Shown: positions 16,235-32,000 of the stretch, one piece after another | How the letters are laid out: every line of letters starts with the position of its first letter | How positions within the stretch are numbered: the stretch's first letter is position 1 | Origin: Dongia sp. | Lineage (GTDB): Bacteria; Pseudomonadota; Alphaproteobacteria; Dongiales; Dongiaceae | NCBI RefSeq assembly: GCF_041906375.1 | Contig: NZ_JAYRJJ010000009.1 | Coordinates: 12,706 to 44,705 of the forward strand | DNA: 32,000 bases | Direction: 5' to 3' | Notes under the pieces: generated by a model | What the model was told of the DNA's origin: nothing | The model's database searches: none | The model's input: only the letters and a program-made list of their open reading frames with translations | Made by a program: the position numbers and the translations under genes

Positions 16235-17278
16235 ATGACCAGCGCCGACATGCCCAGCACGAACGAGACCCAATCGAGTACCGACCGCACCATGGAGCAG
16301 CGCCTGGCGCTGAAACAGCACGGCAGGCTGACGGCACTCCTGGCCAACCAGACATTCTGGGTCTTCATCGCTGTCATTCTCGCTTGTCTTTATTTGTCTG
16401 TCAGCACCGACTCATTCGCGACAGCGAAGAATCTCTACAACATCACGCGTAACGTCACCTTCGTCGCCATCATCGCGCTGGGCATGACGATCGTCATCAT
16501 CTCGGGCGGCATCGATCTTTCCGTGGGATCGGTCCTGTGCCTGTGCAGCATGGTGCTGGCCGTGACGATGCATGCTGGCTACAGCATCGAAATCGGCATC
16601 GCCGCCGCCATCGGCACGGCATTGCTGGTCGGCGCCTTCAACGGCATCCTCATCGCCTATCTGGGCTTTCCACCCTTTGTCGTGACGCTGGGCATGCTGT
16701 CGGTCGCGCGCAGCCTGGCCATGGTGGCTTCCAACAATACGGTCGTGTTCGAATTCGGGCCCGATCACGACAAGCTGCTGGCCCTGGGTGGCGGCGCCTG
16801 GCTGTTCGGCATCGCCAATCCGGTGCTCTATATGCTCGTGCTGGCGCTCCTGACCGGCTTCGTGCTGCGCTGGACGCGGTTCGGCCGCCATGTCTTTGCC
16901 ATCGGCGGCAATGAGAAGGCCGCGACATTGACCGGCGTGCCGGTGAAACCGATCAAGGTCGCGGTCTACATGATTTCGGCGCTCTCGGCCGGCATCGCCG
17001 GGATTGTCCAGACCGGCTGGCTGGGTGCCGTCACCACCAATATCGGTGCCGGCATGGAATTGCAGGTCATTGCCGCGGCCGTCATCGGTGGTGCCGACCT
17101 CGCCGGCGGCGTCGGCACGGCGCTCGGCGCCCTCGTTGGCGCGGCACTCATCGAGGTCATCCGCAACAGCCTCGGCCTGCTCGGGATCAATGCCTTCTGG
17201 CAGGGCGCCTTCATCGGCGGCGCCATCATCCTGGCCGTTCTGTTCGACCGGGTCCGGAATTTCCGCCAGAGCGATTGA
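16235..17278 (+). CDS. Sugar ABC transporter permease (RbsC/XylH family)
   Basis: 347-aa polytopic protein with 'GGIDLSVGS' and 'VFAIGGNEKAATLTGV'. Confidence 0.85.
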   Translation: MTSADMPSTNETQSSTDRTMEQRLALKQHGRLTALLANQTFWVFIAVILACLYLSVSTDSFATAKNLYNITRNVTFVAIIALGMTIVIISGGIDLSVGSVLCLCSMVLAVTMHAGYSIEIGIAAAIGTALLVGAFNGILIAYLGFPPFVVTLGMLSVARSLAMVASNNTVVFEFGPDHDKLLALGGGAWLFGIANPVLYMLVLALLTGFVLRWTRFGRHVFAIGGNEKAATLTGVPVKPIKVAVYMISALSAGIAGIVQTGWLGAVTTNIGAGMELQVIAAAVIGGADLAGGVGTALGALVGAALIEVIRNSLGLLGINAFWQGAFIGGAIILAVLFDRVRNFRQSD

Positions 17279-17309
17279 TCGTAGCGATTGATCGCAGCGA
17301 TTAATCGTC
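17271..17309. repeat. 13-bp x3 tandem repeat straddling the permease stop codon
   Basis: GCGATTGATCGTA / GCGATTGATCGCA / GCGATTAATCGTC, read directly. Confidence 0.85.
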
Positions 17310-17520
17310 CGGCAGCGCTACTTTCAACGAACGGGGCGGCGCTGCGCTTCGGCCGCTCCGCCATGCTCGGTCGAGTCCTCGGACTTGAATGACTTTGTCG
17401 CCCGGGCAATCTCGGCCATGGCGAAGACACTGGTCGCGGCCACGCCAATACGGGCAGTCGGATTGCTTTTGGCGATCCTCGCGTTGATAGTGGAGCGGGT
17501 CACCACAAGACCGAGGATCG

Positions 17521-18096
17521 ATGACAAAGCTGGTCCTGCCGATCGACAACTATGTGCCGAGCACCGCGGCGGTGGACCCGATCTTGCTGTGGCGGGATAC
17601 GCCTGACTTCGCCGACTTCCTGGCGCGGCCCGACAGCGCCGAATTCGTATCGCTCCTCGACTATTGGGACGACAAGCGCGGGGGGACCCCGGCACCCTTG
17701 CGCTCGGCCATCAACCCGGCCGATCTCTCAAGGCTGCTGCCCGGCATTTTCATCATGGAGGTCATCGACGGCCCCCCGCTTGATTTCCGCTTCCGCCTGG
17801 TCGGCACCAACATCATCGGCGGCCTGCGCGCGAATTTTACCGGCAAGACACTGCGCGAGGTTTTCCCGCTTGATGGCATGTTCGCCATAATCTGGAAGCA
17901 ATACCGCGCCGCGATCCAAGGCGACGTCGTCCTGCGGGTCGGCGTCGACGGTTTTGAAGACCATCACTACCGGTTTCGCGTGCCGATCAGCGTCATCCTC
18001 CTGCCGCTGCGCACCGCCCCCGACAGCCCCCGCATCGGCCAGCTGCTGGGCTATGTGAAGTACTACAAGGAAAAGATGGAACGGGTGGATTTCTGA
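17521..18096 (+). CDS. Small PAS-domain protein (PAS_5 / DUF1457-like, common in Rhizobiales)
   Basis: 191 aa. 'LLDYWDDKRGGTPAPLRSAINPADLSRLLPGIFIMEV...FRFRLVGTNI' resembles the stand-alone PAS_5 family as I remember it. This is the last GC-rich gene before the island. Confidence 0.6.
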   Translation: MTKLVLPIDNYVPSTAAVDPILLWRDTPDFADFLARPDSAEFVSLLDYWDDKRGGTPAPLRSAINPADLSRLLPGIFIMEVIDGPPLDFRFRLVGTNIIGGLRANFTGKTLREVFPLDGMFAIIWKQYRAAIQGDVVLRVGVDGFEDHHYRFRVPISVILLPLRTAPDSPRIGQLLGYVKYYKEKMERVDF

Positions 18097-18310
18097 GCCT
18101 GGCGCGCCCAACACACAACTCTAAAACGTCCCTACGAACCCGATCGGCTCGACAAAGAATCAATGAGTTAGATCGATCGTAGCTCATTAGCGCCCCGATC
18201 GGTAGGTCGCTATTCTGCCGAATGGCTCAAGCAAAAGTCACTATTGGCACGAATGTTGACAGGAGCCAACCCGTGCCCCCTGGAAATGCAGAACCCGGCA
18301 CATTTCCTGG

Positions 18311-19279
18311 TTAGACGAACCACGATTTGGGGGCGTGCTTGCGAGGGCCGCTGGGGGGCCTCTTGATCTTCTTAGGAGGCAAGAACTCCCGGAACACGTC
18401 ATTAATGATCTGCCGCCAGCCGTCGTCGGGCTGCATCCCGATCAGAGTTTGAACAGGGTTCAGCCGCATGATGGAATCCTTGGCCTCCCCAGCATTCTTC
18501 TCCATGAGCAACTCCAGATACTGGGTGAACTTCGTCGGCCAGTCATCCAGCAGCGCGACGCCACGGGCAATCAGGTTTGACTGGGAAACCGTTGTCTTAC
18601 TTTCCCCAGGGCGCATAGCTTTGCCCTCGACGGCAGCAACGACACGGCCCAGGCTTAGCAGAAGCTCTAACTGATCGCCCATTGATAGGTCGGACAGGAC
18701 CGACCCTGGCGGGTGAGTTCCGCCAGTAGCAATCACATGAATCACCTTCATTGCATCTTGGGTCCGCTGATCCACGCTGCGGCCCTGCATCAAGGTGAAC
18801 GGCATCTGACAACGAGGACAGGCCTCGATTCCAGATAATGACCACAGGAATTCATGGTCCGGACAGGAGGGGCAGCTATTGATGAGAGTCCGCCGATGAA
18901 CGTGGCAGGCACTCAGCGGTCCCAAATACCAATTATGCCTGTGGAAAGGACTGTCCACTAAGCATTCTGGGCAGATCCACATTTTACTAGTCCGGACCCA
19001 ATCCCGAAGGATCACCTGGCCGCGAAAGTGCGCCAAGCGAGGTGTATCGGCACCCAGCAACCCGTTTTGGAGAACCTCCCATTGATCACCCAGTGCGTCG
19101 GCAAGTTGGTCCAAGCTCCAGGCAAAAGGTAGTCTCCATATCCGGTCGGCAGCGCGAAAATCAGGGATCAGATTTCCGACGTTTTCAGAACCAAGGATTT
19201 TCGCGGTGCGCTTGAGATAACCGAGGATGCTTTCGCCTTCATATGCCTGAGGGCGGATCGGATATTGTTTGACTGTCAT
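18311..19279 (-). CDS. TniQ-domain protein (solitary, with no TnsA/B/C partners in the window)
   Basis: The N-terminus 'YPIRPQAYEGESILGYLKRTA' fits the P-x-P-x-x-GES-hh-S/G-hh-R TniQ signature. It is followed by zinc-ribbon-like 'CPECL..H(x3)W..C.VHRRTLINSCPSCP...CPRC'. I trimmed the start to the only ATG (19277-19279). The track ORF begins at a TTG at 19411. Confidence 0.7.
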   Translation of the reverse strand: MTVKQYPIRPQAYEGESILGYLKRTAKILGSENVGNLIPDFRAADRIWRLPFAWSLDQLADALGDQWEVLQNGLLGADTPRLAHFRGQVILRDWVRTSKMWICPECLVDSPFHRHNWYLGPLSACHVHRRTLINSCPSCPDHEFLWSLSGIEACPRCQMPFTLMQGRSVDQRTQDAMKVIHVIATGGTHPPGSVLSDLSMGDQLELLLSLGRVVAAVEGKAMRPGESKTTVSQSNLIARGVALLDDWPTKFTQYLELLMEKNAGEAKDSIMRLNPVQTLIGMQPDDGWRQIINDVFREFLPPKKIKRPPSGPRKHAPKSWFV

Positions 19280-19394
19280 TGTTGGTTTGCTTGGGATCGA
19301 AGTTGCTGTGCATGCCACGCATGGAATTTGCCAAGCAGTTCTCAATTTAGGGTTACGATTTCCTTCAATTTTACATGAATTCGATCGACGCGTG

Positions 19395-20225
19395 TCAGAC
19401 CACGCTGACAACGACAGCGGTTAGATTATCATGGCCGCCCCGCTCAATGGCGAGTGACGCCAACCGATCTACTGCTTGGACGCCGTAATCTATCAGAGCC
19501 TCCCAAATCTCATCATCCTCAATAAGATCGCTAATTCCATCACTACAAATCAGATAACTCTCACCCAGCCAAAGTGATTTCCCACCCACATGTGGCGTGA
19601 TCTCTAGCTGAGGATTTGAGCCGCCTAGAACTTGAACTAGCGTGGAACTCTGCTTCTTTAGGCCTAGATAACCACCAACGGTATCGTCCCGAGATAGCTG
19701 ATAGAGCCCAAGCGAGCTAAACGAATACACTCGGGAGTCACCGACGTTAAAGAAATACATCGTCGCACCATGAATCCATAAGCCCGCTATTGTCGTGCCC
19801 ATGCCCCGCGTCTGGTCGGTCATCAAATCGAAGATTTGTCGGTCGACCTCGACGAGTGCTTGAGCAATGGCCTCCTTATTGTCGGCCCTCAAAAGCCGTC
19901 TGCTAAGGAACTCGATGGCGCCATGACTAGCGACCTCTCCGCCCGCCGGGTTGCTCATTCCGTCTGCGACCAGAACGACTCTGACTTCGTCCGTGGAAGC
20001 AGTTACTTCATGAGCGTTTCGCATGGAGTCGGAGGATGCCCAATCAACGACGTGAACACGATCCTGATTGATTGAATGAATCAGGCCCGGATGAGTGATC
20101 GCCCGGATCAGGAGGTTGAGTGAAGCGGGTGGCGATGACGGCCTATTTTCCTTCATTTGGGCTGACTTCAGATATTCGGGCATTGACGAAGGAAGCCGTG
20201 CCATCGATTTGGATGACAAACTCAA
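19395..20225 (-). CDS. PP2C-family (PPM) Ser/Thr protein phosphatase
   Basis: All PPM blocks are present: 'NQDR', 'VADGMS..GGEVAS', 'GMGTT', 'NVGDSRVY', 'CSDGISD' and 'GGHDNLTAVVV'. The start is uncertain. 20225 is a TTG, and in-frame ATGs lie at 20204, 20183 and 20156. Every option overlaps the stop of the upstream TIR gene (20143-20145). Confidence 0.85.
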   Translation of the reverse strand: MSLSSKSMARLPSSMPEYLKSAQMKENRPSSPPASLNLLIRAITHPGLIHSINQDRVHVVDWASSDSMRNAHEVTASTDEVRVVLVADGMSNPAGGEVASHGAIEFLSRRLLRADNKEAIAQALVEVDRQIFDLMTDQTRGMGTTIAGLWIHGATMYFFNVGDSRVYSFSSLGLYQLSRDDTVGGYLGLKKQSSTLVQVLGGSNPQLEITPHVGGKSLWLGESYLICSDGISDLIEDDEIWEALIDYGVQAVDRLASLAIERGGHDNLTAVVVSVV

Positions 20226-21027
20226 ATGTCATCTCATCCTTGTCAGGCTTGATAAGACCGCGAGTGTTGTCGACGATCGCGAGGATCTTGGTGGCTGCAT
20301 AGAAGCCATTGGTGTTTCTGAGTATGAGAATTTGACCAAGCTGCGGCCGACGATGTGCCGAGGAGAAGTCGAAAGTGGCGGCGTCGCCAATGTCGCTTAT
20401 TTCGTGGGCCCCAACAGCGACAGCGATGCCATGTATGCTGGGCTTGTCGTTGTGAGCTTGTATACTCGTGTCACTGGATTTACTCCAATGAGTCTCGAAG
20501 AGATATGGGTCACGTCCCAGGATGTAGACGCCGTTATACGACGAGTAATCGAAAGTGATCGTCCCGCTGCTTGATGTCACATGAGGCGGGGGAACGTCTG
20601 ATGCCTTGGTAGCGAAGGGGCTTATTCCCAGCTTCTGAACTATCAGTGTCGCCAAAGCATAGGGCGTCAGCTTATTCGCATCGAGATATTGGATTGTCGA
20701 GGGCATTCCCGGCACTGGCGTGTCATCAAAGCGGACAGGCAGAACGTATTCTGACTTCTCCATCAGAGCTCGGCTTAGAGCAGAACGACGTTCGTGGCTG
20801 CACCAGGGTTTGTCCACATACTCCTTGGAGATGAACATCACCACATACGATGTCTCAGCGGAGAAAAGCTGATGGAAGAACTCGACGCCGTCTTTGCCCC
20901 ATAGCGTTACTTGGCTGTCGCCGTCATAGAAGACCGGAACGCCAAAGGATTGAAGGGATCGAACGACCTGCTCGACGTAGAGTCGTTGTTCTCCAGCGAA
21001 CGAAACGGCTGCCTGATACTTAAACAT
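20143..21027 (-). CDS. TIR-domain protein with an unassigned ~150-aa C-terminal domain
   Basis: The N-terminal ~140 aa read 'AAVSFAGEQRLYVEQVVRSLQSFGVPVFYD..VVMFISKEYVDKPWCSHERRSAL', which is TIR_2-like with a WCxxE glutamate. The C-terminal half ('TITFDYSSYNGVYILGRDP...GQILILRNTNGFYAATKILAIVD') looks beta-rich and I do not recognise it. Confidence 0.8.
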   Translation of the reverse strand: MFKYQAAVSFAGEQRLYVEQVVRSLQSFGVPVFYDGDSQVTLWGKDGVEFFHQLFSAETSYVVMFISKEYVDKPWCSHERRSALSRALMEKSEYVLPVRFDDTPVPGMPSTIQYLDANKLTPYALATLIVQKLGISPFATKASDVPPPHVTSSSGTITFDYSSYNGVYILGRDPYLFETHWSKSSDTSIQAHNDKPSIHGIAVAVGAHEISDIGDAATFDFSSAHRRPQLGQILILRNTNGFYAATKILAIVDNTRGLIKPDKDEMTFEFVIQIDGTASFVNARISEVSPNEGK

Positions 21028-21214
21028 TTACGGCCTCAAGTCGGTGGATGTCGGATTACGTCCGCAATCTCCGCGGCAATCTCTTGAACGGTATTCGTTG
21101 CTGTATTTCGAGCGAGCCTATGCGCCCGGCGCTCACTCGAAACCGCCAGCTCGATATGTTAGCTAGGGCGCCAAGATGCTCTAAATAGTTGATCAATATA
21201 GATATGTAGATTGA

Positions 21215-21242
21215 TTGATTAATCCTTAACAGATCTTATAAT
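21215..21242 (+). promoter_or_regulatory. Sigma70-like promoter candidate for thsA
   Basis: TTGATT (21215-21220), a 16-bp spacer, then TATAAT (21237-21242), about 43 nt upstream of the thsA GTG and within the AT-rich divergent region. Confidence 0.35.
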
Positions 21243-21284
21243 TCCCGGAAAACTGCCAAATGAAAGAGTCGCTGGGGACGTAGC

Positions 21285-22724
21285 GTGATATCAAAAGTAG
21301 AAGGCTTCATAGAAAAATACTTAGGTGAACTAAGGCAGAACAACGCCGCCGTTTTCGTTGGGGCTGGACTGTCTACTAGTGCTGGCTTTGTTGACTGGGC
21401 AGGCCTTCTGGCGCCGTTGGCCAAAGAGATAAGCCTCGACAGCACCAAAGAGACTGACCTCGTGGCGCTTGCCCAGTACTACCTCAACTCCAAGCGTGGG
21501 CAACGCCACGACATCAATCAACTTCTAGTCGACAAATTTTCAGATTTGCGAGCGCCGACGGAGAACCATCGCATTCTTGCTCGGCTTCCTCTCGGCGTTT
21601 ACTGGACCACCAACTATGATCGACTGCTGGAAACTGCAATTCAGCAGGCTGGTCGTCGACTCGACGTAAAACTCACGGTCAAGGGTCTGTCGAGGACACG
21701 CCCCGGTCGAGATGCCGTGCTCTACAAGATGCATGGCGACATTGAATTGCCCGAAGACACGATTCTGGCAAAAGACGAGTACGAGAGATATCACGTTAGC
21801 CACCAGCCCTTCGTCACAGCTCTCTCGGGCGACCTCGTCGAGCGAACTTTCTTATTTCTCGGCTTCAGCTTTACAGACCCGAACATCGACTACATTTTTA
21901 GCCGAATCCGGATTCAACTTGTTGGCAATCAGCGGACTCACTACTGGCTGACCAAGCGTCGCACTCAAAAGCCCGGAGAAAGCTCAGAGGACTTCGGGTA
22001 CGCGAGGGCTAAGCAAGATCACGTTATCGAGGATCTCAAGCGCTTCAACGTTGAAGCAATCCTTGTCGATGAGTACTCGGACATCACCGAAACTCTGCAG
22101 AAAATCGAGAATCGATTTCGCATGGCGACAGTCTTTGTCTCTGGTGCGGCCGCGGACTATTCGGGCAATGACCCGACCGTTGTTGATCAGGTTCTTAAGA
22201 AGATTGGTACGAATCTCATTTCAGATGGCTTCCGGATCGCGAGCGGCATGGGTATCGCTGTCGGGACGGCAGTCGTCACTGGTGCAGTCGAACAGATCTA
22301 TTCAGATGACTCACGTTCTATCCAAAACAGCCTGGTGCTGCGACCCTTTCCCATTGGGATTGAGGACGCCGCCAAGCGTATGGAGACGTTTACTCGCTAT
22401 AGGGAAGAGCTCATCAGTCAGGCCGGGATCGCGATCTTCATTTTGGGAAATAAGATCGAGAGCGGAAAGCTCGTCGAGTCTCCCGGGGTCTGGCAGGAGT
22501 TCGAGCTCGCAAAGCAGAAGGGGCTCCACATTATCCCCGTCGGTGGGCTTGGCGGCATGGCTGCCAAAGTCGCAAATGAAGTGCTGACAAACTTCGCCCA
22601 ATACTACCCGAAAGATGACGGCTCCATCCGCGCGGCAATCGAAAAGCTGAATGGGCCAATGGGGGATGGATTGGGTTACCTCGACGCTCTACGAACGATT
22701 ATTAACAAGCTCGCAAAGGACTAA
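21285..22724 (+). CDS. thsA: Thoeris ThsA (N-terminal SIR2 NADase plus C-terminal SLOG signal-binding domain)
   Basis: Alignable by eye along its whole length with Bacillus cereus ThsA as I remember it. Shared blocks include 'AAVFVGAGLS', 'DLVALAQYY', 'NHRILARLPL..YWTTNYDRLLE', 'DAVLYKMHGD', 'FLFLGFSFTDPNIDYI', 'ITETLQKIENR', SLOG 'TVFVSGAA', 'LVLRPFP' and 'IFILGNK'. It has a GTG start after GGGGA. Confidence 0.92.
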   Translation: MISKVEGFIEKYLGELRQNNAAVFVGAGLSTSAGFVDWAGLLAPLAKEISLDSTKETDLVALAQYYLNSKRGQRHDINQLLVDKFSDLRAPTENHRILARLPLGVYWTTNYDRLLETAIQQAGRRLDVKLTVKGLSRTRPGRDAVLYKMHGDIELPEDTILAKDEYERYHVSHQPFVTALSGDLVERTFLFLGFSFTDPNIDYIFSRIRIQLVGNQRTHYWLTKRRTQKPGESSEDFGYARAKQDHVIEDLKRFNVEAILVDEYSDITETLQKIENRFRMATVFVSGAAADYSGNDPTVVDQVLKKIGTNLISDGFRIASGMGIAVGTAVVTGAVEQIYSDDSRSIQNSLVLRPFPIGIEDAAKRMETFTRYREELISQAGIAIFILGNKIESGKLVESPGVWQEFELAKQKGLHIIPVGGLGGMAAKVANEVLTNFAQYYPKDDGSIRAAIEKLNGPMGDGLGYLDALRTIINKLAKD

Positions 22725-22728
22725 TTGA

Positions 22729-23139
22729 ATGCCGAGGCGCGTATTCTTTAGCTTCCACTATGACGACATCATGAACGCGAACATCGTTCGAATGTCGGGT
22801 CAGTTCAAGCCGACAAAGGAGACCGGATTCTATGACGCGTCGCTCTGGGAAGAGGCGAAGCTAAAGGGCGACTCAGCAATCAAGCGGCTCATCGACGACG
22901 GTATGAAAAACACGAGCGTCACGTGTGTCCTGATTGGCGAAAAAACCCACGCTCGGCCCTGGTGCAAGTATGAGGTCGAACAGTCGCGAGCTCTCCGCAA
23001 GGGACTGTTCGGTGTTTTGCTTCCCAATCAGACCAAGTACGGCCCGAAGTGGATCAGCCAATGGGCGCCCGTCTACACCTGGGATCACAACAAGTTTCAG
23101 AGTTGGGTCGACCAAGCCGCTGAGAAAGTTGGCCGATAG
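22729..23139 (+). CDS. thsB: ThsB-like TIR-like protein (DUF1863 type), short form
   Basis: 'RRVFFSFHYDDI', 'FYDASLWEEAKLKGDSAIKRLIDDGMKNTSVTCVLIGEKTHARPWCKYEVEQS' parallels B. cereus ThsB. The gene starts 4 nt after the thsA stop. Confidence 0.85.
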   Translation: MPRRVFFSFHYDDIMNANIVRMSGQFKPTKETGFYDASLWEEAKLKGDSAIKRLIDDGMKNTSVTCVLIGEKTHARPWCKYEVEQSRALRKGLFGVLLPNQTKYGPKWISQWAPVYTWDHNKFQSWVDQAAEKVGR

Positions 23140-23205
23140 TCCAGCCCTGATCGGTCGGAGTTCGAGCGTGACATCGCCTCTGGGGATTTCAAAGAAAGAC
23201 ACCGA

Positions 23206-23805
23206 ATGCGCAGAACGTTCTTCTCGTTTCATTACCAACCGGATGTCTGGCGGGCTTGGAATGTCCGTAATTCTTGGGCTGTCGTGCCGACGGAACAGGA
23301 GGACGTGGGTTTCTTTGACGGTAGCGTATTCGAAGCTGCGAAGAGGACGAGCGATGATTCACTCAAGACCTTTTTGCGCGAAGGACTGAAGAATACTTCG
23401 GTAACTTGTGTGCTTGCAGGTACTGCGACATGGACAAGGAGATGGGTGCGGTACGAAATCGCGCGTAGCGTGATCAAGGGTAACGGCCTACTGACCGTTC
23501 ATATCCACGGGGTGAAAAACAAGGATGGAGTTGTCGCGGAGAAGGGTTCAAACCCGCTCAATGCGATGGGTGTGTATAAGGCCCTCGGCAGTATCTATCT
23601 GGCGGAATGGAAAGACGGCAAATGGGCGAAGTACGAAGATTACTCGCTGGCAATTCCCGAAGCGGATCTTAGATTTGCAGCCCCCACGACCGACAATGTG
23701 GTTCAGCTTTCCAGTCACTACATGAGTTACGACTTCGTCGACCAAAGCGGTCGGGCGAACATCGGTGGATGGATAGAGACCGCGGCGGGGTTGGCGGGTC
23801 GCTAA
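23206..23805 (+). CDS. thsB: ThsB (TIR-like, DUF1863 type), full-length form
   Basis: 'RRTFFSFHYQPDVWRAWNVRNSW', 'FFDGSVFEAAKRTSDDSLKTFLREGLKNTSVTCVLAGTATWTRRWVRYEIARSVIKGNGLL' and 'LAEWKDGKWAKYEDY' closely parallel B. cereus ThsB from memory. Confidence 0.9.
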   Translation: MRRTFFSFHYQPDVWRAWNVRNSWAVVPTEQEDVGFFDGSVFEAAKRTSDDSLKTFLREGLKNTSVTCVLAGTATWTRRWVRYEIARSVIKGNGLLTVHIHGVKNKDGVVAEKGSNPLNAMGVYKALGSIYLAEWKDGKWAKYEDYSLAIPEADLRFAAPTTDNVVQLSSHYMSYDFVDQSGRANIGGWIETAAGLAGR

Positions 23806-23862
23806 CTCGATGTGGCGCCGATTGGCGCCGCAAGCATTTGACAGAGAGAGTTGGGAGGAGCG

Positions 23863-24456
23863 ATGCCTTACCTAACCGAAAGCGAAGTAAGGGAAGCCGC
23901 GAAAGGTGTGGTGCTGCGTAAGCGCGCCATCAGTGCGGCTTCAATTCTCAAGGAGTCCGTTGAAGCGGCATCTGACGCCGATACCTTCGATGTGTTTCTG
24001 TGCCACGCATTTCGAGACGCAGAACTCGTTCTGGGAGCGAAGAATATTCTGGAGAGCAAGAGGTTGAAAGTCTATGTGGATTGGATCGTCGATCCTCAGA
24101 TGAACCGTTCCAATGTTACGGCCTCAACGGCAGGCATTCTCCGCAAGAGAATGCGGAACAGCAAAAGTCTATTCTATCTCTATTCCAACAACTCCACCCA
24201 GTCGCGATGGATGCCTTGGGAGCTGGGTTATTTCGATGGCCACAACGGGGCGGTTGCCATTTTACCAATCAAGCCGGATGGCAAGCGTATCGACTTCAGC
24301 CAGGAGGAGTATCTAGGTCTCTACCCTAAGGTCGAAATTCAAGACGCAGACCTATTCATTAATAGGACGACAGATTTACCAGTGCCTGGTGACGACAAAG
24401 CCAATTATAGAGGCTTTGAGACCTGGATCAGTCGGCCGCGGGAACTCCAACTCTAA
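23863..24456 (+). CDS. TIR-domain protein (third ThsB-type gene of the locus, different TIR subtype)
   Basis: 'FDVFLCHAFRDAELVLGAKNILESKRLKVYVDW...SKSLFYLYSNNSTQSRWMPWELGYFDG'. I trimmed the start to the ATG at 23863, directly after GGGAGGAG. The track TTG at 23851 would lie inside that RBS. Confidence 0.75.
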   Translation: MPYLTESEVREAAKGVVLRKRAISAASILKESVEAASDADTFDVFLCHAFRDAELVLGAKNILESKRLKVYVDWIVDPQMNRSNVTASTAGILRKRMRNSKSLFYLYSNNSTQSRWMPWELGYFDGHNGAVAILPIKPDGKRIDFSQEEYLGLYPKVEIQDADLFINRTTDLPVPGDDKANYRGFETWISRPRELQL

Positions 24457-24561
24457 GCGAATGATGGTTACGGAGATGCGCTTTCGCCACTGCGCATACC
24501 GGAAACATGTGTCATTGAGTCCTTTTGGGATCGTTCCACTGCTAGCACTGGGGGGAGTGAG

Positions 24562-26094
24562 ATGGCTAGACTACTTGGCCCTGTTCTGCGCCTTCGCGGC
24601 CACGACCATCGAAACAACCTCTGGCGCATAAGCGCGCTGGTATGTGTTGAGGCGGGCGATCCCAAGCCTACACTATCCTATTCGCTCGGCGTTGGTGACA
24701 GGAACATTCCCTGCGGCCAGCTCTGGGCAATCGACGGCGCAGAGTCTTATCGATTTGATCTCGATGTGCCCCTCACTGATCAGCCCCAGGTTCTTCGCTA
24801 TCGAGTTAGCACGGGGCCGGAAGAGTGGACAGTTCATGTCCCTGGCCAAAACATTCAGCCGCTGTTCGCATTTGGGTCGTGCAACGGTTTTTCGAGCCTG
24901 AAGCTCAAGAAGTCAATCGATGACTCGGATGCGCTATGGAAACATATGGCGCTCCGCCACGAAACTATCGGCTATAACGCTCTTCTATTGGGTGGCGATC
25001 AAGTTTACTCCGATGCCATGTGGGAGCTCATCACCGAACTTGAAGACTGGAATGATCGGCTCTGGAGCGATCCTCTGAAAGGTGTCGTTCCCGAGGGCTT
25101 GCCTGAAAAACTGCTGAACCACTTCTTTATGGAAATGTACTGCAGGCGTTGGAGTCAGCGCCCGGTTCGCGAAGTTCTAGCTCGAATACCAACCATCATG
25201 ATGTGGGATGATCACGACATCATGGATGGCTGGGGTTCCTACAAAGAAGAGTGGGCTCAGAGCCCTGTCTATCGCCTCATCTTCTCTACTGCGAGCAAGT
25301 GTTTTGAACTCTTTCAACTCCAGTCGACGATGCACGATCCGGTATTTATCCCGGATCGTGCGGCAGGCTACAGCCAGCTCTACTATTTCTCGGGCGTGTC
25401 GCTTCTCATTCCTGACCTACGTGCTGAACGGCGGCTTGATCAGGTAATCAGTCCGACAACGTGGAAGGCTATCTATAGTAAGCTCGAAAGCCTATCGATC
25501 GATCCCGATCGCGCACTAGTTCCCTGCCGACATCTATTGGTCATGTCTAGCATTCCCGTCATGCACGCGCGGTTCGGTCAAATCGAGTCAATCCTTGGCT
25601 GGACGCCGGGACAGCAAGAGCTTGAGGACGACCTACACGATCATTGGAGCAGTCGCCCCCATCGAGGCGAGCGCCTTCGCCTGATTCATCGGCTCCTGGA
25701 GTACTCCCGCAAAGAAAATGTGAGAGTGACCATTCTGTCCGGAGACGTTCATGTCGCGGCACATGCGACAATCTATTCTAGTCGGGAGGGCGAGCCTAGC
25801 ACCAAGCACACACTGGTTCAGTTAACTTCATCGGGTATCGTTCATCCGGCGCCCCCAGCGATCATGAGGTTTGCCCTCAACACTCTGTTTGATGATGACG
25901 AAGAGATTGATCAGGGCATCATTGGGCGCATGGAAAAGATGCCGGGCGACGAAAGGCGCTATGTTGCATCGAGGAATTGGCTATCTCTCGAACGAGATGA
26001 TCCTCAACGATCCTTGGGGCGGCTTTGGGCGAACTGGTTCGCCGAAGAGGATGTGGCGCATCCGTTTACGAGGGTGATTCATCCGATCGGATAG
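24562..26094 (+). CDS. PhoD-like / calcineurin-like metallophosphoesterase
   Basis: 510 aa with metallophosphatase blocks 'FAFGSCNG', 'LLLGGDQVYSD', 'IMMWDDHDIMDGWGSY' and 'ILSGDVHVAAH'. The ATG follows GGGGGAGTGAG. Confidence 0.75.
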   Translation: MARLLGPVLRLRGHDHRNNLWRISALVCVEAGDPKPTLSYSLGVGDRNIPCGQLWAIDGAESYRFDLDVPLTDQPQVLRYRVSTGPEEWTVHVPGQNIQPLFAFGSCNGFSSLKLKKSIDDSDALWKHMALRHETIGYNALLLGGDQVYSDAMWELITELEDWNDRLWSDPLKGVVPEGLPEKLLNHFFMEMYCRRWSQRPVREVLARIPTIMMWDDHDIMDGWGSYKEEWAQSPVYRLIFSTASKCFELFQLQSTMHDPVFIPDRAAGYSQLYYFSGVSLLIPDLRAERRLDQVISPTTWKAIYSKLESLSIDPDRALVPCRHLLVMSSIPVMHARFGQIESILGWTPGQQELEDDLHDHWSSRPHRGERLRLIHRLLEYSRKENVRVTILSGDVHVAAHATIYSSREGEPSTKHTLVQLTSSGIVHPAPPAIMRFALNTLFDDDEEIDQGIIGRMEKMPGDERRYVASRNWLSLERDDPQRSLGRLWANWFAEEDVAHPFTRVIHPIG

Positions 26095-26199
26095 CGTCGA
26101 GGCTACACATCATGCCAGGGCACTTTGGCACGATCTGCCATGGCGCATTGCTGAAACGTCTGCGGCGACACCTGTAACCGAAGATCAGTAGGTACATCC

Positions 26200-27111
26200 A
26201 TGAATCGTTCGGCGGAAACATCATTGATCGACGTTTTGGGGAGGCGGCATGAAAAGCTGACCTTGCTTTTGGGGAATGGCGTAAACCGCTACGGTAGTTC
26301 TGGTCGGCACAATTCCTGGGCAGATTTGCTGCTCGATGTTGCAAATAGGCATATTCCAGGTGTTGGCGACAGGCTTCCTTCCGGCGTTACGGCAACCGAA
26401 GTATTCGATCTATCCTGCTTAGCTGCGAAGTCTAAGGATTCGGAAGGCCTTTTGCAGAAGGAATTTTGTACCTCAATGGCTTCGTGGAGGGCATATCCGC
26501 ATCATGAGCGGATCGTGGAGTGGGCCCGGGAACGAGATCATCCAATTCTCACGACCAACTTCGACCAGGTCCTTTCAGAGTCCTGCAATGCGAATGTTTA
26601 TCATCATGGGAACTCGAAATTCACTTACTACTACCCGTGGGCAACCTACTTTGGGCTCGGAGAGATCCAACGCCCTTCATCGGCATTTGGTATATGGCAC
26701 CTACACGGAATGATGCGATATCATCGAAGCATACGTCTGGGGTTGACTCATTATATGGGGGCTGTTCACCAAGCCCGAAGGTGGATTCATCGTGGGGGCG
26801 GTAGACTTTTCTCATCGGCGAGAGCCATCGATACCTGGAGTGGAAGTGGGACTTGGTTGGACGCTTTTTTCAACAATGACCTGCTTGTGATAGGTCTTTC
26901 GTTGGATGAAGTAGAAGTCTTTATTCGATGGTTGCTCCTGGAGAGATCGCGCTTATTCAAGAACTTCCCATCATTGCGTCGCAGAGGTTGGTTTGTTTGC
27001 ACCAAAGACGGCGTCTCCCCAGGAAGAGAGTTGTTCCTGCGGGGCGTGGGGCTGACGCCAATCAGGGTGAAGGACTACCACGAGATTTATCAATCAACTG
27101 GCTGGCGCTAG
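26200..27111 (+). CDS. Stand-alone SIR2-like protein (SIR2_2 / ThsA-N-terminal type, no SLOG)
   Basis: 303 aa. 'LLLGNGVN' sits in the position of GAGxS. 'ILTTNFDQVLSE' contains Asn120 (codon 26557-26559). 'IWHLHGMM' contains the catalytic-position His. 'DLLVIGLSLDEVEV' parallels the FLGFSFTD block of ThsA. Confidence 0.75.
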   Translation: MNRSAETSLIDVLGRRHEKLTLLLGNGVNRYGSSGRHNSWADLLLDVANRHIPGVGDRLPSGVTATEVFDLSCLAAKSKDSEGLLQKEFCTSMASWRAYPHHERIVEWARERDHPILTTNFDQVLSESCNANVYHHGNSKFTYYYPWATYFGLGEIQRPSSAFGIWHLHGMMRYHRSIRLGLTHYMGAVHQARRWIHRGGGRLFSSARAIDTWSGSGTWLDAFFNNDLLVIGLSLDEVEVFIRWLLLERSRLFKNFPSLRRRGWFVCTKDGVSPGRELFLRGVGLTPIRVKDYHEIYQSTGWR

Positions 27112-30974: not shown

Positions 30975-32000
30975 CTAGTGCCGGGTCATTCCATGCTCTC
31001 GCGAAGCGACTACAGCTTCGACAAGCCGCTCAAGCGTCCGCAGCGACGATCCCTGCCATAAGCGTGACATCGCCTCCATTTCCTCGACCGTGAACGGGGA
31101 TGCCCATCTGGAGCTCAATCCCCGCCGCTCAAAAACCCGCTTGAGCATTTGGTAGCTGATGGCGACCATGTCTGACGGCCTGGGTTCCGGAAATCGGATC
31201 GCTCGACACCGATCAAGCAGCACGCCGGGAATGCCCTTGAGAGTGTTCGCTGTGGCGATCCACACGACGTTCGATAAATCCACTGGGGATTGAATGTAAG
31301 GGTCGACCCATCGCCGCGCTGACTGCGCTTCGAAGAACCCCAGCAAGACATCGAACATCGAGCCATTCTGTTTTGACGTGGACGCTTTTTCCATCTCATC
31401 GAGAAGAATTCCTGGAGACGCCGTCGCATGGCGGCGGATCATAGCCACTGGAAGAGAAGGCTCTCCTGAATGCCATCGCCGAGCCGTGCCGCCGATCGTA
31501 GAGTCCGCCACCCCGCCACATGGGTACGTCTCATTCGGCACTTCCAAGAGGTCAAGAAAACGCTCGGCGTAAGAAGTCTTGCCGCAGCCGGGCGGTCCAA
31601 ACAGAACAGTCGGCCGCATGGTGACATGCTGCTTCCCATATAGACCGCCTAACATCGCCTTGGTCACATCAGCCGCGTGAGGGAATTCGGTCAGCAATGT
31701 GTTGCCAATCAGATCAAGATTGGGAATCGCGATAAGAGGGAGTGCCTTGGCCTCGATTTCCTTGAATTCTCGGCGGAGCGTCGATCCCGCGCTGATGTCG
31801 GTGTTTCCAACTCGCTGCAGCACTACCACTGTCAGATCTTTCGGTGCGGACGGCCCATTTTGTGGTGTAGCCTGAACCTCAATGTGCGCCTCGATCGTCG
31901 CGTCTTTATCTGACAGCCTCTCCGATACCTCAGGATTGGCCTTTTTCAAAAACTTTGCGCCACACTCACACGCAGCTTGCCGCGCATCATTTCGCCGTAA
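30975..32000 (-). CDS. Lon-like AAA+ ATPase module without a protease domain, probably 5'-truncated by the window edge
   Basis: 'VLFGPPGCGKTS' Walker A, 'ILLDEMEKA' Walker B and 'VWIATANTLKGIPGVLLDRCRAIRFPEP' parallel the Lon AAA+ blocks (GPPGVGKTS / LLDEIDK / FIATAN..IP.PLLDRMEVI). The track start at 31949 is a TTG, and I translated the same frame as open through 32000. Confidence 0.75.
   Translation of the reverse strand, partial: LRRNDARQAACECGAKFLKKANPEVSERLSDKDATIEAHIEVQATPQNGPSAPKDLTVVVLQRVGNTDISAGSTLRREFKEIEAKALPLIAIPNLDLIGNTLLTEFPHAADVTKAMLGGLYGKQHVTMRPTVLFGPPGCGKTSYAERFLDLLEVPNETYPCGGVADSTIGGTARRWHSGEPSLPVAMIRRHATASPGILLDEMEKASTSKQNGSMFDVLLGFFEAQSARRWVDPYIQSPVDLSNVVWIATANTLKGIPGVLLDRCRAIRFPEPRPSDMVAISYQMLKRVFERRGLSSRWASPFTVEEMEAMSRLWQGSSLRTLERLVEAVVASREHGMTRH

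What the first reader, a model, noticed from the sequence alone, without database searches (positions are those of the whole stretch)
20143..27111. Six NAD-processing genes (four TIR-fold, two SIR2) packed into 7 kb around one divergent promoter region
Counting the divergent TIR gene, the locus encodes four TIR-fold proteins of three subtypes and two SIR2 proteins, one with SLOG and one without. All appear to have intact catalytic residues. They are interleaved with two phosphoryl-transfer enzymes, the PP2C and the PhoD-like protein. That density suggests a single integrated signalling network of several sensors, two effectors and two potential signal or state erasers, not independent neighbours. 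This would be an expanded Thoeris architecture.
Basis: inference. Interest (0 to 1): 0.6.

Follow-up and report, generated by a model that had tools for sequence, protein, structure and literature searches.

The report
Thoeris island mosaic with VstB-like phosphatase
The six NAD-cleaving genes are real, but they are separately inherited anti-phage cassettes rather than one network; only the PhoD-like phosphatase shows a repeated link to such systems, and that link has not been described for Thoeris.

Summary
Observation confirmed. Bases 20143-27111 encode four TIR proteins of three subtypes, ThsA (SIR2-STALD), a short stand-alone SIR2, a PP2C and a PhoD_2 phosphoesterase. All have intact catalytic motifs.

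Interpretation only partly supported.
1. thsA-thsB1-thsB2-thsB3 is a canonical type I Thoeris. Three Acidobacteriota loci have the same four-gene order without the flanking genes.
2. TIR-PP2C-TniQ is a separate cassette. It recurs next to CBASS without Thoeris and occurs in 0 of 80 ThsA loci. The "divergent promoter" is a recombination scar: 21045-21152 holds the last ~36 codons of a truncated DUF1883-TIR gene, and homology to the Thoeris block starts at 21178.
3. The short SIR2 has a KomC/DSR2-like fold. It is rare (1 of 400 genomes) and solitary elsewhere.
4. PhoD_2 has comparative support. In other lineages it lies among ThsB genes, among TIR+SLOG genes and in Pycsar cNMP-TIR operons. The same Pfam family follows DUF4062 (NIR) genes, the layout of the published Vesta system (vstAB).

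Most likely PhoD_2 is a portable, non-essential accessory of NADase-based immunity that hydrolyses a nucleotide signal or product.

The parts
18311..19411 (-). TniQ-domain protein (366 aa), last gene of the left cassette
   Evidence: Pfam TniQ E 1e-11. 84% identical to the TniQ gene of L010/L011 in the same cassette. Overlaps the PP2C gene by 17 nt.
19395..20225 (-). PP2C-type protein phosphatase (276 aa)
   Evidence: Pfam PP2C_2 E 1.7e-8. ADG, GDSR and SDG motifs present. 53% identical to the PP2C of L010/L011. Found in 0 of 80 ThsA loci.
20143..21027 (-). TIR_2 protein with a conserved, unassigned C-terminal domain (294 aa), first gene of the left cassette
   Evidence: Pfam TIR_2 E 3.9e-15 and WCSHE glutamate. 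More than 900 homologues at 50-77% identity over 95% of the length. Seen solitary or beside CBASS or Pycsar-like genes.
21045..21152 (-). Remnant of the last ~36 codons of a DUF1883-TIR gene (recombination scar)
   Evidence: tblastn 67% identity over 36 aa to the C-terminus of the L002 DUF1883-TIR protein, E 1e-8. Window 20199-21121 aligns with L010 at 75% nt identity across the TIR_2 start codon. In L010 the intact gene sits directly upstream of TIR_2.
21178..21284 (+). thsA upstream region, inherited with the Thoeris block; promoter-like TTGATT-16-TATAAT at 21215-21242
   Evidence: Nucleotide homology to L002 (82%) starts at 21178. The promoter-like site matches 10 of 12 positions; this is a consensus match only.
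21285..22724 (+). thsA: SIR2 NADase plus STALD/SLOG sensor (479 aa)
   Evidence: PADLOC ThsA E 2.8e-179; Pfam STALD E 5.6e-58 and SIR2_2 E 1e-27. N110 and H150 invariant.
22729..23139 (+). thsB1: short ThsB-type TIR (136 aa)
   Evidence: PF08937 E 5.7e-20. Catalytic E82 invariant. Full-length 136-aa orthologues at 93% identity (L002) and 68-71% identity (Acidobacteriota).
23206..23805 (+). thsB2: ThsB-type TIR (199 aa)
   Evidence: PF08937 E 6.4e-25; PADLOC ThsB E 1.3e-55. WVRYE glutamate.
23851..24456 (+). thsB3: ThsB of a second subtype (201 aa)
   Evidence: PADLOC ThsB (PDLC00422) E 2.9e-63. WMPWE glutamate. This subtype occurs in 22 of 80 ThsA loci.
24562..26094 (+). PhoD_2 (PF19050) cytoplasmic metallophosphoesterase (510 aa), same Pfam family as the phosphatases of Vesta-type operons
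   Evidence: Pfam E 5.5e-37. No Tat signal. SCNG, GGDQxYxD, WDDHD, SGDVH and H428 conserved. AlphaFold2 pLDDT 89.8; purple-acid-phosphatase-like fold with an N-terminal beta-sandwich. Embedded in TIR-based or NIR-based loci elsewhere.
26200..27111 (+). Short stand-alone SIR2 NADase-like protein (303 aa), no sensor domain
   Evidence: Invariant N120 and H167. AlphaFold2 pLDDT 86.8, single domain. Foldseek top matches are KomC, DSR2, FAM118B and SPARSA. Adjacent to PhoD_2 also in L016. Solitary in L006, L008, L009 and G306.

Best explanation
The 7-kb stretch is a mosaic of separately inherited cassettes. It lies in a variable region found only in this Dongia genome among those searched.

(1) thsA-thsB1-thsB2-thsB3 is a complete type I Thoeris. 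By established knowledge of the family, one of three TIR sensors detects infection and makes 3'cADPR. The signal binds the SLOG domain of ThsA, and the SIR2 domain then depletes NAD+.

(2) Downstream sits a cytoplasmic PhoD_2 metallophosphoesterase. It belongs to the same Pfam family as the phosphatases that follow NIR genes in Vesta-type operons. I infer that it is a portable, non-essential accessory of NADase-based immune modules (NIR, TIR, perhaps SIR2). It would hydrolyse either basal signal (a noise suppressor, like MisB in Metis) or ADPR-type products of NAD+ cleavage.

(3) The short SIR2 travels with PhoD_2 in this lineage but is solitary elsewhere. It is a second NADase whose trigger is unknown.

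(4) TIR_2+CTD / PP2C / TniQ is an unrelated cassette. Recombination cut off its upstream DUF1883-TIR gene and joined it to thsA.

Shown: domain identities, catalytic motifs, synteny, breakpoints and neighbourhood counts.
Inferred: all biochemical roles, co-transcription, and the PhoD_2 function.
For: Thoeris block. Identity. The same four-gene order occurs without the flanking genes in L117, L120 and L121.

Left cassette.
- L010/L011 carry TIR_2 (77%), PP2C (53%) and TniQ (84%) after CBASS and DUF1883-TIR, with no Thoeris.
- A DUF1883-TIR remnant lies at 21045-21152, and homology to L002 starts at 21178.
- The cassette is found in 0 of 80 ThsA loci.

PhoD_2.
- It was co-inherited with Thoeris in L002/L003 (80-82% nt identity).
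- It follows two ThsB genes, a TIR_2 gene and a SLOG cluster3 gene in L017 (PhoD_2 44% identical).
- It lies between ThsB genes in L063 (31% identical).
- It lies beside or between cNMP-TIR effector genes in L177 and L178, and near one in L026.
- It directly follows DUF4062 genes in at least 7 distinct loci.
- The TIR-linked PhoD_2 proteins are polyphyletic in the family tree.
- Among 21 genomes searched (13 Dongia, 8 same class), PhoD_2 and ThsA were both found only in G000.

Precedent. Vesta vstB is strongly operon-linked yet dispensable for defence. Metis MisB removes basal activator (10.64898/2026.09.04.749371).

Transcription. No promoter-like or terminator-like site lies between thsA and the SIR2 gene.
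Against: - From the Thoeris side PhoD_2 is rare: 1 of 80 ThsA loci, and there it is 3 kb away on the other strand.
- L016 has PhoD_2 plus the short SIR2 with no ThsB3 upstream. PhoD_2 may therefore belong with the SIR2 and not with Thoeris.
- Many PhoD_2 genes sit in apparently housekeeping contexts (L005, L176).
- Defence genes cluster, so some TIR adjacency is expected by chance.
- The islands compared (window, L002, L010, L177) share several cassettes and are not fully independent samples.
- No transcript, biochemical or phenotypic data exist. The published VstB sequence could not be compared directly.
Confidence: 0.62

Rival explanations
1. One reading: all eight genes form one integrated signalling network. 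Several TIR sensors, two SIR2 effectors and two erasers (PP2C, PhoD) would be co-regulated from a shared divergent promoter.
For: The genes are tightly packed and all catalytic motifs are intact. The related island L002 also has a divergent TIR gene to the left of thsA and a short SIR2 to the right. Multi-ThsB, multi-effector islands exist.
Against: - The spacer is a recombination scar that contains a truncated gene.
- The left cassette recurs without Thoeris and in 0 of 80 ThsA loci.
- The divergent TIR of L002 is a different family (382 aa, with a SLOG-like partner).
- The short SIR2 has no SLOG or other sensor domain and is solitary elsewhere.
- PP2C is a protein phosphatase, not a nucleotide hydrolase.
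Confidence: 0.06
2. Two adjacent but independent systems lie on the plus strand: a four-gene type I Thoeris, and a separate Vesta-like two-gene system in which PhoD_2 partners the short SIR2 NADase in place of a NIR NADase.
For: - L016 has PhoD_2 (86%) directly followed by the short SIR2 (72%). Homology to the window starts exactly at the PhoD_2 start codon, and there is no ThsB3 upstream.
- Vesta sets the precedent of a small NADase paired with a phosphatase of this kind.
- The four-gene Thoeris exists without PhoD_2.
- The nearest structural relative of the SIR2, KomC, works with a partner protein.
Against: - The short SIR2 occurs without PhoD_2 in L006, L008, L009 and G306.
- PhoD_2 occurs with TIR genes and no short SIR2 in L017, L063, L177, L178 and L026.
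- In L002 the pair is split by two inserted genes. There the SIR2 is only 54% identical while PhoD_2 is 88% identical.
Confidence: 0.22
3. Every flanking gene, PhoD_2 included, is only a chance neighbour in a defence island. PhoD_2 would be a captured housekeeping phosphoesterase with no role in immunity here.
For: Close relatives of the window's PhoD_2 (56% identity, L176) and others (L005) lie beside peptidase M20 and metabolic genes. The nearest-neighbour Pfam tally of the family is mostly metabolic. PhoD_2 is found in 1 of 80 ThsA loci.
Against: PhoD_2 is embedded next to NADase-family genes in at least five independent lineages with different gene orders. The block was co-inherited with Thoeris. 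Among the 21 genomes searched, PhoD_2 was found only in the genome that also has the island.
Confidence: 0.1

Closest known systems
Type I Thoeris (ThsA SIR2-SLOG + ThsB TIR; Doron 2018 and Ofir 2021 cited from my own knowledge; Yirmiya et al. bioRxiv 10.64898/2025.12.03.692087)
   Same: thsA with SIR2 and STALD domains and catalytic N/H. Adjacent ThsB genes with the catalytic glutamate. Several ThsB genes per operon, which is common. The same four-gene order occurs in Acidobacteriota.
   Different: A PhoD_2 phosphoesterase and a sensor-less short SIR2 are appended downstream. Neither is a described Thoeris component. The words phosphatase and PhoD do not occur in the text or held supplements of that survey.
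Vesta (vstA NIR/DUF4062 NADase + vstB alkaline phosphatase; Le Mouellic et al., bioRxiv 10.64898/2026.09.04.749371)
   Same: A phosphatase sits in an operon with an NAD+-depleting immune module. PF19050 proteins of the same alignable family directly follow DUF4062 genes in at least 7 distinct loci fetched here.
   Different: The window has no DUF4062/NIR gene. The partners here are TIR (ThsB) and SIR2 genes. The window's PhoD_2 lies in a different clade from the NIR-linked ones. The published VstB sequence itself could not be compared.
Metis MisB and CRISPR ring nucleases (host enzymes that remove the activating nucleotide)
   Same: The proposed logic is the same: a hydrolase in the operon keeps basal signal below the effector threshold and is dispensable for defence.
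   Different: MisB is a HAD phosphatase and ring nucleases are CARF or other folds. PhoD_2 is a binuclear metallophosphoesterase. No substrate is known for it.
KomC of Kongming and the SIR2 domain of DSR2
   Same: Best structural matches of the 303-aa SIR2 (Foldseek E about 1e-6, TM 0.54-0.66). Similar size to KomC. Catalytic Asn and His conserved.
   Different: No KomA or KomB genes nearby. Only 15-17% sequence identity. No DSR2-type sensor region.
Type III Thoeris (several TIR proteins plus a SLOG-domain effector, as summarised by Yirmiya et al.)
   Same: The PhoD_2-containing loci L017 and L063 carry a TIR_2 protein of about 385 aa plus a SLOG cluster3 protein beside ThsB genes. L002 probably does too, with a faint SLOG match.
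   Different: The window itself has no SLOG-only protein. In the window that position is taken by the TIR_2+CTD / PP2C / TniQ cassette.

Membership tests
Type I Thoeris | Effector with an N-terminal SIR2 domain and a C-terminal SLOG (STALD) domain | tested here: met
   Pfam SIR2_2 E 1e-27 and STALD E 5.6e-58; PADLOC ThsA E 2.8e-179 over residues 3-478
Type I Thoeris | Catalytic Asn and His of the SIR2 domain | tested here: met
   TTNYD (N110) and KMHGD (H150), invariant in the alignment with the L002 and L063 ThsA proteins
Type I Thoeris | One or more adjacent ThsB TIR genes with the catalytic glutamate | tested here: met
   Three ThsB genes. E82 invariant in ThsB1. WVRYE and WMPWE motifs in ThsB2 and ThsB3.
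Type I Thoeris | Phage-triggered 3'cADPR production, NAD+ depletion and defence | not testable with these tools
   Needs infection assays and LC-MS
Vesta (vstAB) | Small NIR (DUF4062) NADase gene directly upstream of the phosphatase | tested here: not met
   No DUF4062 hit among the window ORFs. tblastn with three VstA-like proteins finds nothing in the window.
Vesta (vstAB) | Phosphatase partner of the PhoD type | tested here: inconclusive
   The window protein is PF19050. PF19050 proteins follow DUF4062 genes in L045, L046, L048, L058, L064, L069 and L073 and align with conserved active-site columns. The published VstB (WP_274410425.1) could not be fetched for a direct comparison.
Kongming (KomABC) | KomC-like SIR2 together with KomA and KomB genes | tested here: not met
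   The fold is similar to KomC, but the neighbours are PhoD_2 and MerR. No deaminase or HAM1-like gene was found.
Single integrated 'expanded Thoeris' of eight families | The flanking families co-occur with ThsA loci above background | tested here: not met
   In 80 ThsA loci with +-10 kb flanks: PP2C 0, TniQ 0, short SIR2 0, TIR_2+CTD 2 partial matches, PhoD_2 1
Single integrated 'expanded Thoeris' of eight families | A shared divergent control region | tested here: not met
   The spacer consists of a DUF1883-TIR gene remnant (21045-21152) plus thsA's own upstream region (from 21178). The two parts have different ancestries.

The most novel reading that the evidence does not exclude
PF19050 (PhoD_2) phosphoesterases, the family that supplies the phosphatases of Vesta-type operons, are a general and portable accessory of NAD+-cleaving immune modules. 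The partners include NIR in Vesta, ThsB/ThsA in type I Thoeris, TIR+SLOG loci, cNMP-TIR effectors of Pycsar, and perhaps a sensor-less SIR2. These systems use different signals but all cleave NAD+. The shared substrate would therefore be an NAD+-derived product such as ADPR or cADPR isomers. The enzyme would either suppress basal activation or destroy ADPR so that phage NAD+-reconstitution pathways cannot rebuild NAD+.
Probability: 0.35. Interest if true: 0.65.

Novelty: new variant of a known kind. Interest (0 to 1): 0.45.

Why it matters
The role of VstB in Vesta is an open question: it is strongly operon-linked yet dispensable for defence. If the same phosphoesterase family also accompanies Thoeris, TIR+SLOG and Pycsar-TIR systems, the range of candidate substrates narrows. 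The systems use unrelated signals but share NAD+ cleavage, so the substrate may be an NAD+-derived molecule. That gives several reconstitutable systems in which to test whether the enzyme is a noise suppressor or blocks NAD+ reconstitution by phages.

The result also shows that a dense cluster of related enzymes in a defence island need not be one system. Here a truncated-gene scar marks the seam between two cassettes.

Tried and rejected
- Sequence searches of the short SIR2 profile and of PhoD_2 against PDB sequences gave nothing useful. Fold search was needed.
Co-transcription therefore rests only on the absence of promoter-like or terminator-like sites, which is weak.
- Literature: searches for Thoeris with PhoD, metallophosphatase or phosphodiesterase, and for STALD/SLOG with calcineurin, found no description of the link. 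Burroughs et al. 2015 is not held.
- The 136-aa ThsB as a truncated pseudogene: rejected, because conserved full-length orthologues exist.
- TniQ plus the AAA gene at the window end as a Tn7/Tn5053-like transposon: rejected. The AAA gene belongs to an AAA-DUF6634-UvrD set syntenic with L002, and no transposase was found.
- PhoD_2 as a secreted Tat substrate like canonical PhoD: rejected. No member examined has a twin-arginine signal, and all start M..GPVLRFRG.
- Thoeris-linked PhoD_2 proteins as one specialised clade: rejected. They are polyphyletic.
- Finding the empty site of the island in relatives: only the left boundary (about 17280) was found. Nothing downstream in relatives matches the next 33 kb.
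Full report
**What is there**

G+C drops from about 0.62 to 0.50-0.55 from about 18 kb onward. Homology with five congeners stops at 17274-17291, just after an ABC permease gene. The variable region therefore begins there.

The genes in and around the finding are as follows.
- Minus strand: TniQ-like (18311-19411), PP2C (19395-20225) and TIR_2 with an unassigned C-terminal domain (20143-21027). Adjacent genes in this trio overlap.
- Plus strand: thsA (21285-22724), thsB1 of 136 aa (22729-23139), thsB2 of 199 aa (23206-23805), thsB3 of 201 aa (23851-24456), PhoD_2 of 510 aa (24562-26094) and a 303-aa SIR2-like protein (26200-27111).
- Further on lie MerR, a 172-aa protein and an HD enzyme, which another finding covers. 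Beyond the window lie AAA, DUF6634 and UvrD genes.

ThsA has TTNYD (N110) and KMHGD (H150). The four TIR proteins keep the catalytic glutamate.

The short SIR2 falls just below the Pfam cut-off, at 23.6 against 24.5 bits. However, a 37-member alignment shows invariant GNGxNR, TTNFD and WHxxG motifs. Its AlphaFold2 model (pLDDT 86.8) is a single SIR2 domain. The best PDB matches are KomC, DSR2, FAM118B and SPARSA.

PhoD_2 has the conserved SCNG, GGDQxYxD, WDDHD and SGDVH blocks and no Tat signal. Its model (pLDDT 89.8) has an N-terminal beta-sandwich and a metallophosphoesterase domain of the purple-acid-phosphatase type.

**The Thoeris core is ordinary**

Eighty ThsA loci from species-representative genomes were examined. 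Twelve have three or more TIR genes. Three Acidobacteriota loci (L117, L120, L121) have exactly the window's order. They run ThsA, a 136-aa ThsB at 68-71% identity, a ThsB of about 195 aa, and a ThsB3-type gene. None has any of the window's flanking genes. The short thsB1 is therefore a conserved gene and not a fragment. The four-gene unit stands on its own.

**The left cassette is a separate unit**

The closest relatives of the TIR_2+CTD protein were followed to their contigs.
- In L010/L011 (77% identity) it follows a CBASS pair (SMODS, SAVED) and a DUF1883-TIR gene. It is followed by two unknown genes, then PP2C (53%), TniQ (84%) and another gene. There is no Thoeris.
- In L012 it ends a Pycsar-like array.
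- In L013-L015 it is alone among transposases.

None of the 80 ThsA loci has PP2C or TniQ.

The decisive evidence is in the spacer. Window 20199-21121 aligns with L010 at 75% nt identity across the TIR_2 start codon. Positions 21045-21152 (minus strand) still encode the last ~36 residues of a DUF1883-TIR protein (RLARNTATNTVQEIAAEIADVIRHPPT*). The rest of that gene is gone. Homology to the Thoeris block of L002 (82% nt) begins at 21178 and includes the promoter-like site at 21215-21242. The 257-bp "divergent promoter" is thus a recombination seam with a breakpoint between 21152 and 21178.

**The short SIR2**

The family is rare. It was found in 1 of 400 other Pseudomonadota genomes and has 271 relatives in the large protein collection.

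It is solitary in Quatrionicoccus, Undibacterium and G306. In Agrobacterium it lies in a defence island without PhoD_2 or Thoeris.

It is adjacent to PhoD_2 in the window and in L016 (PhoD_2 86%, SIR2 72%). In L016, homology to the window starts exactly at the PhoD_2 start and no ThsB3 lies upstream.

L002 is a homologous island. Its Thoeris proteins are 78-94% identical and its PhoD_2 88% identical to the window's. Its short SIR2 is only 54% identical and is separated from PhoD_2 by two inserted genes, one of them Mrr-like. That divergence is similar to the backbone genes AAA (48-54%), DUF6634 (49%) and UvrD (66%).

**PhoD_2 is the part with comparative support**

From the Thoeris side it is rare: 1 of 80 loci, 3 kb away on the other strand.

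From the PhoD_2 side the picture differs. Eighty metagenome loci and six contig look-ups gave these cases.
- L017 (44% identity): ThsB3-type TIR, TIR_2 of 389 aa, SLOG cluster3, two ThsB genes, then PhoD_2 36 nt downstream.
- L063 (31% identity): PhoD_2 on the opposite strand between ThsB genes. ThsA lies on one side and a TIR_2 (387 aa) plus SLOG cluster3 pair on the other.
- L002: the same 382-aa TIR_2 family with a faint SLOG cluster3 partner, divergent from thsA.
- L177 and L178, the sister proteins of the L017 PhoD_2: PhoD_2 lies inside Pycsar-like operons (cyclase, E1, JAB, cNMP-binding TIR effector). In L177 it sits between two cNMP-TIR genes.
- L026: PhoD_2 lies near a cNMP-TIR gene and next to an Endonuclease_NS gene.

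These PhoD_2 proteins are polyphyletic in the family tree.

In Vesta, a small NIR (DUF4062) NADase is paired with an alkaline phosphatase, VstB. VstB is dispensable for defence but strongly operon-linked. I verified that DUF4062 genes of 374-423 aa sit directly upstream of PF19050 genes in at least 7 distinct loci of my set. That clade also contains the Thoeris-embedded L063 protein, which has no VstA.

Of the 80 metagenome loci, at least 9 are NIR-linked (7 distinct, since L064/L065 and L073/L074 carry identical genes), 3 are TIR-linked and 1 is linked to the short SIR2. Most of the rest have metabolic neighbours.

PhoD_2 and ThsA were both found only in G000 among 13 Dongia and 8 same-class genomes.

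**How it most likely works**

Thoeris works as published. For PhoD_2 the partner systems use unrelated signals: 3'cADPR, cyclic pyrimidines, and in Vesta possibly a product of genome degradation. All of them cleave NAD+. I therefore favour an accessory hydrolase that acts on an NAD+-derived molecule or on basal signal. It would be non-essential for defence, as reported for VstB and for MisB of Metis. This is inference.

The short SIR2 has no sensor domain. It may depend on a partner, and PhoD_2 is the obvious candidate in this lineage. Alternatively it may be an independent single-gene module. The left cassette probably acts on its own.

**Limits**

- The islands compared share cassettes, so they are not fully independent.
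- TIR detection in flanks relied on tblastn with a limited query set.
- The chance rate of adjacency within defence islands was not modelled.

**Verdict**

The "single integrated network" reading is not supported for the TIR-PP2C-TniQ cassette and only weakly for the short SIR2. Multi-sensor, multi-effector Thoeris islands are already published. What is new is a variant: a phosphoesterase of the Vesta-type family attached to Thoeris and other TIR systems. I found no description of this in the library searched.

Noticed in passing
window 21045-21152 (-): Remnant of the 3' end of a DUF1883-TIR gene, directly upstream of the TIR_2 gene. The intact gene occupies this position in L010 and also occurs in L002 (87% identical between those two).
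   Followed up: yes
window 17275-18100: Homology with five Dongia relatives ends right after the ABC permease (about 17280). The PAS_5 gene (17521-18096) already belongs to the strain-specific region, although its G+C is still high. No right boundary was found within 50 kb.
   Followed up: partly
window 30975-32000 and L179 1-4515: The AAA gene at the window end is 531 aa. It is followed by a DUF6634-like gene and a UvrD helicase, syntenic with L002 (48-66% identity). An AAA plus DUF6634 pair also lies downstream of the Pycsar/PhoD_2 locus L177. This may be a recurring module.
   Followed up: partly
L010 4573-13017: A CBASS pair (SMODS, SAVED) is followed on one strand by DUF1883-TIR, TIR_2+CTD, two unknown genes (108 and 324 aa), PP2C, TniQ and a 260-aa gene. 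The window's cassette lacks the two unknown genes. TniQ is conserved at 84% identity while PP2C is only 53% identical.
   Followed up: partly
L063 8371-9813 (-): The ThsA gene of this metagenome Thoeris locus has an in-frame stop at codon 434. The remaining ~45 codons continue in the same frame. This is either a truncation or a sequencing error.
   Followed up: partly
L026 1671-2417, L030 99-695, L171 6318-7031: An Endonuclease_NS gene lies directly upstream of PhoD_2 in two loci. A 41%-identical one lies near the Thoeris of L171. This may be another effector partner of PhoD_2.
   Followed up: no
L017 6560-9964 and L063 2355-5309: A TIR_2 protein of about 385 aa paired with a SLOG cluster3 protein sits beside ThsB genes. 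This fits the published one-line description of type III Thoeris. L002 has the same TIR with a 167-aa partner that matches SLOG cluster3 only faintly (E 0.065).
   Followed up: partly
L117, L120, L121: The 136-aa ThsB1 is better conserved between Alphaproteobacteria and Acidobacteriota (68-71% identity) than ThsA (47%) or the other ThsB genes (36-48%).
   Followed up: no
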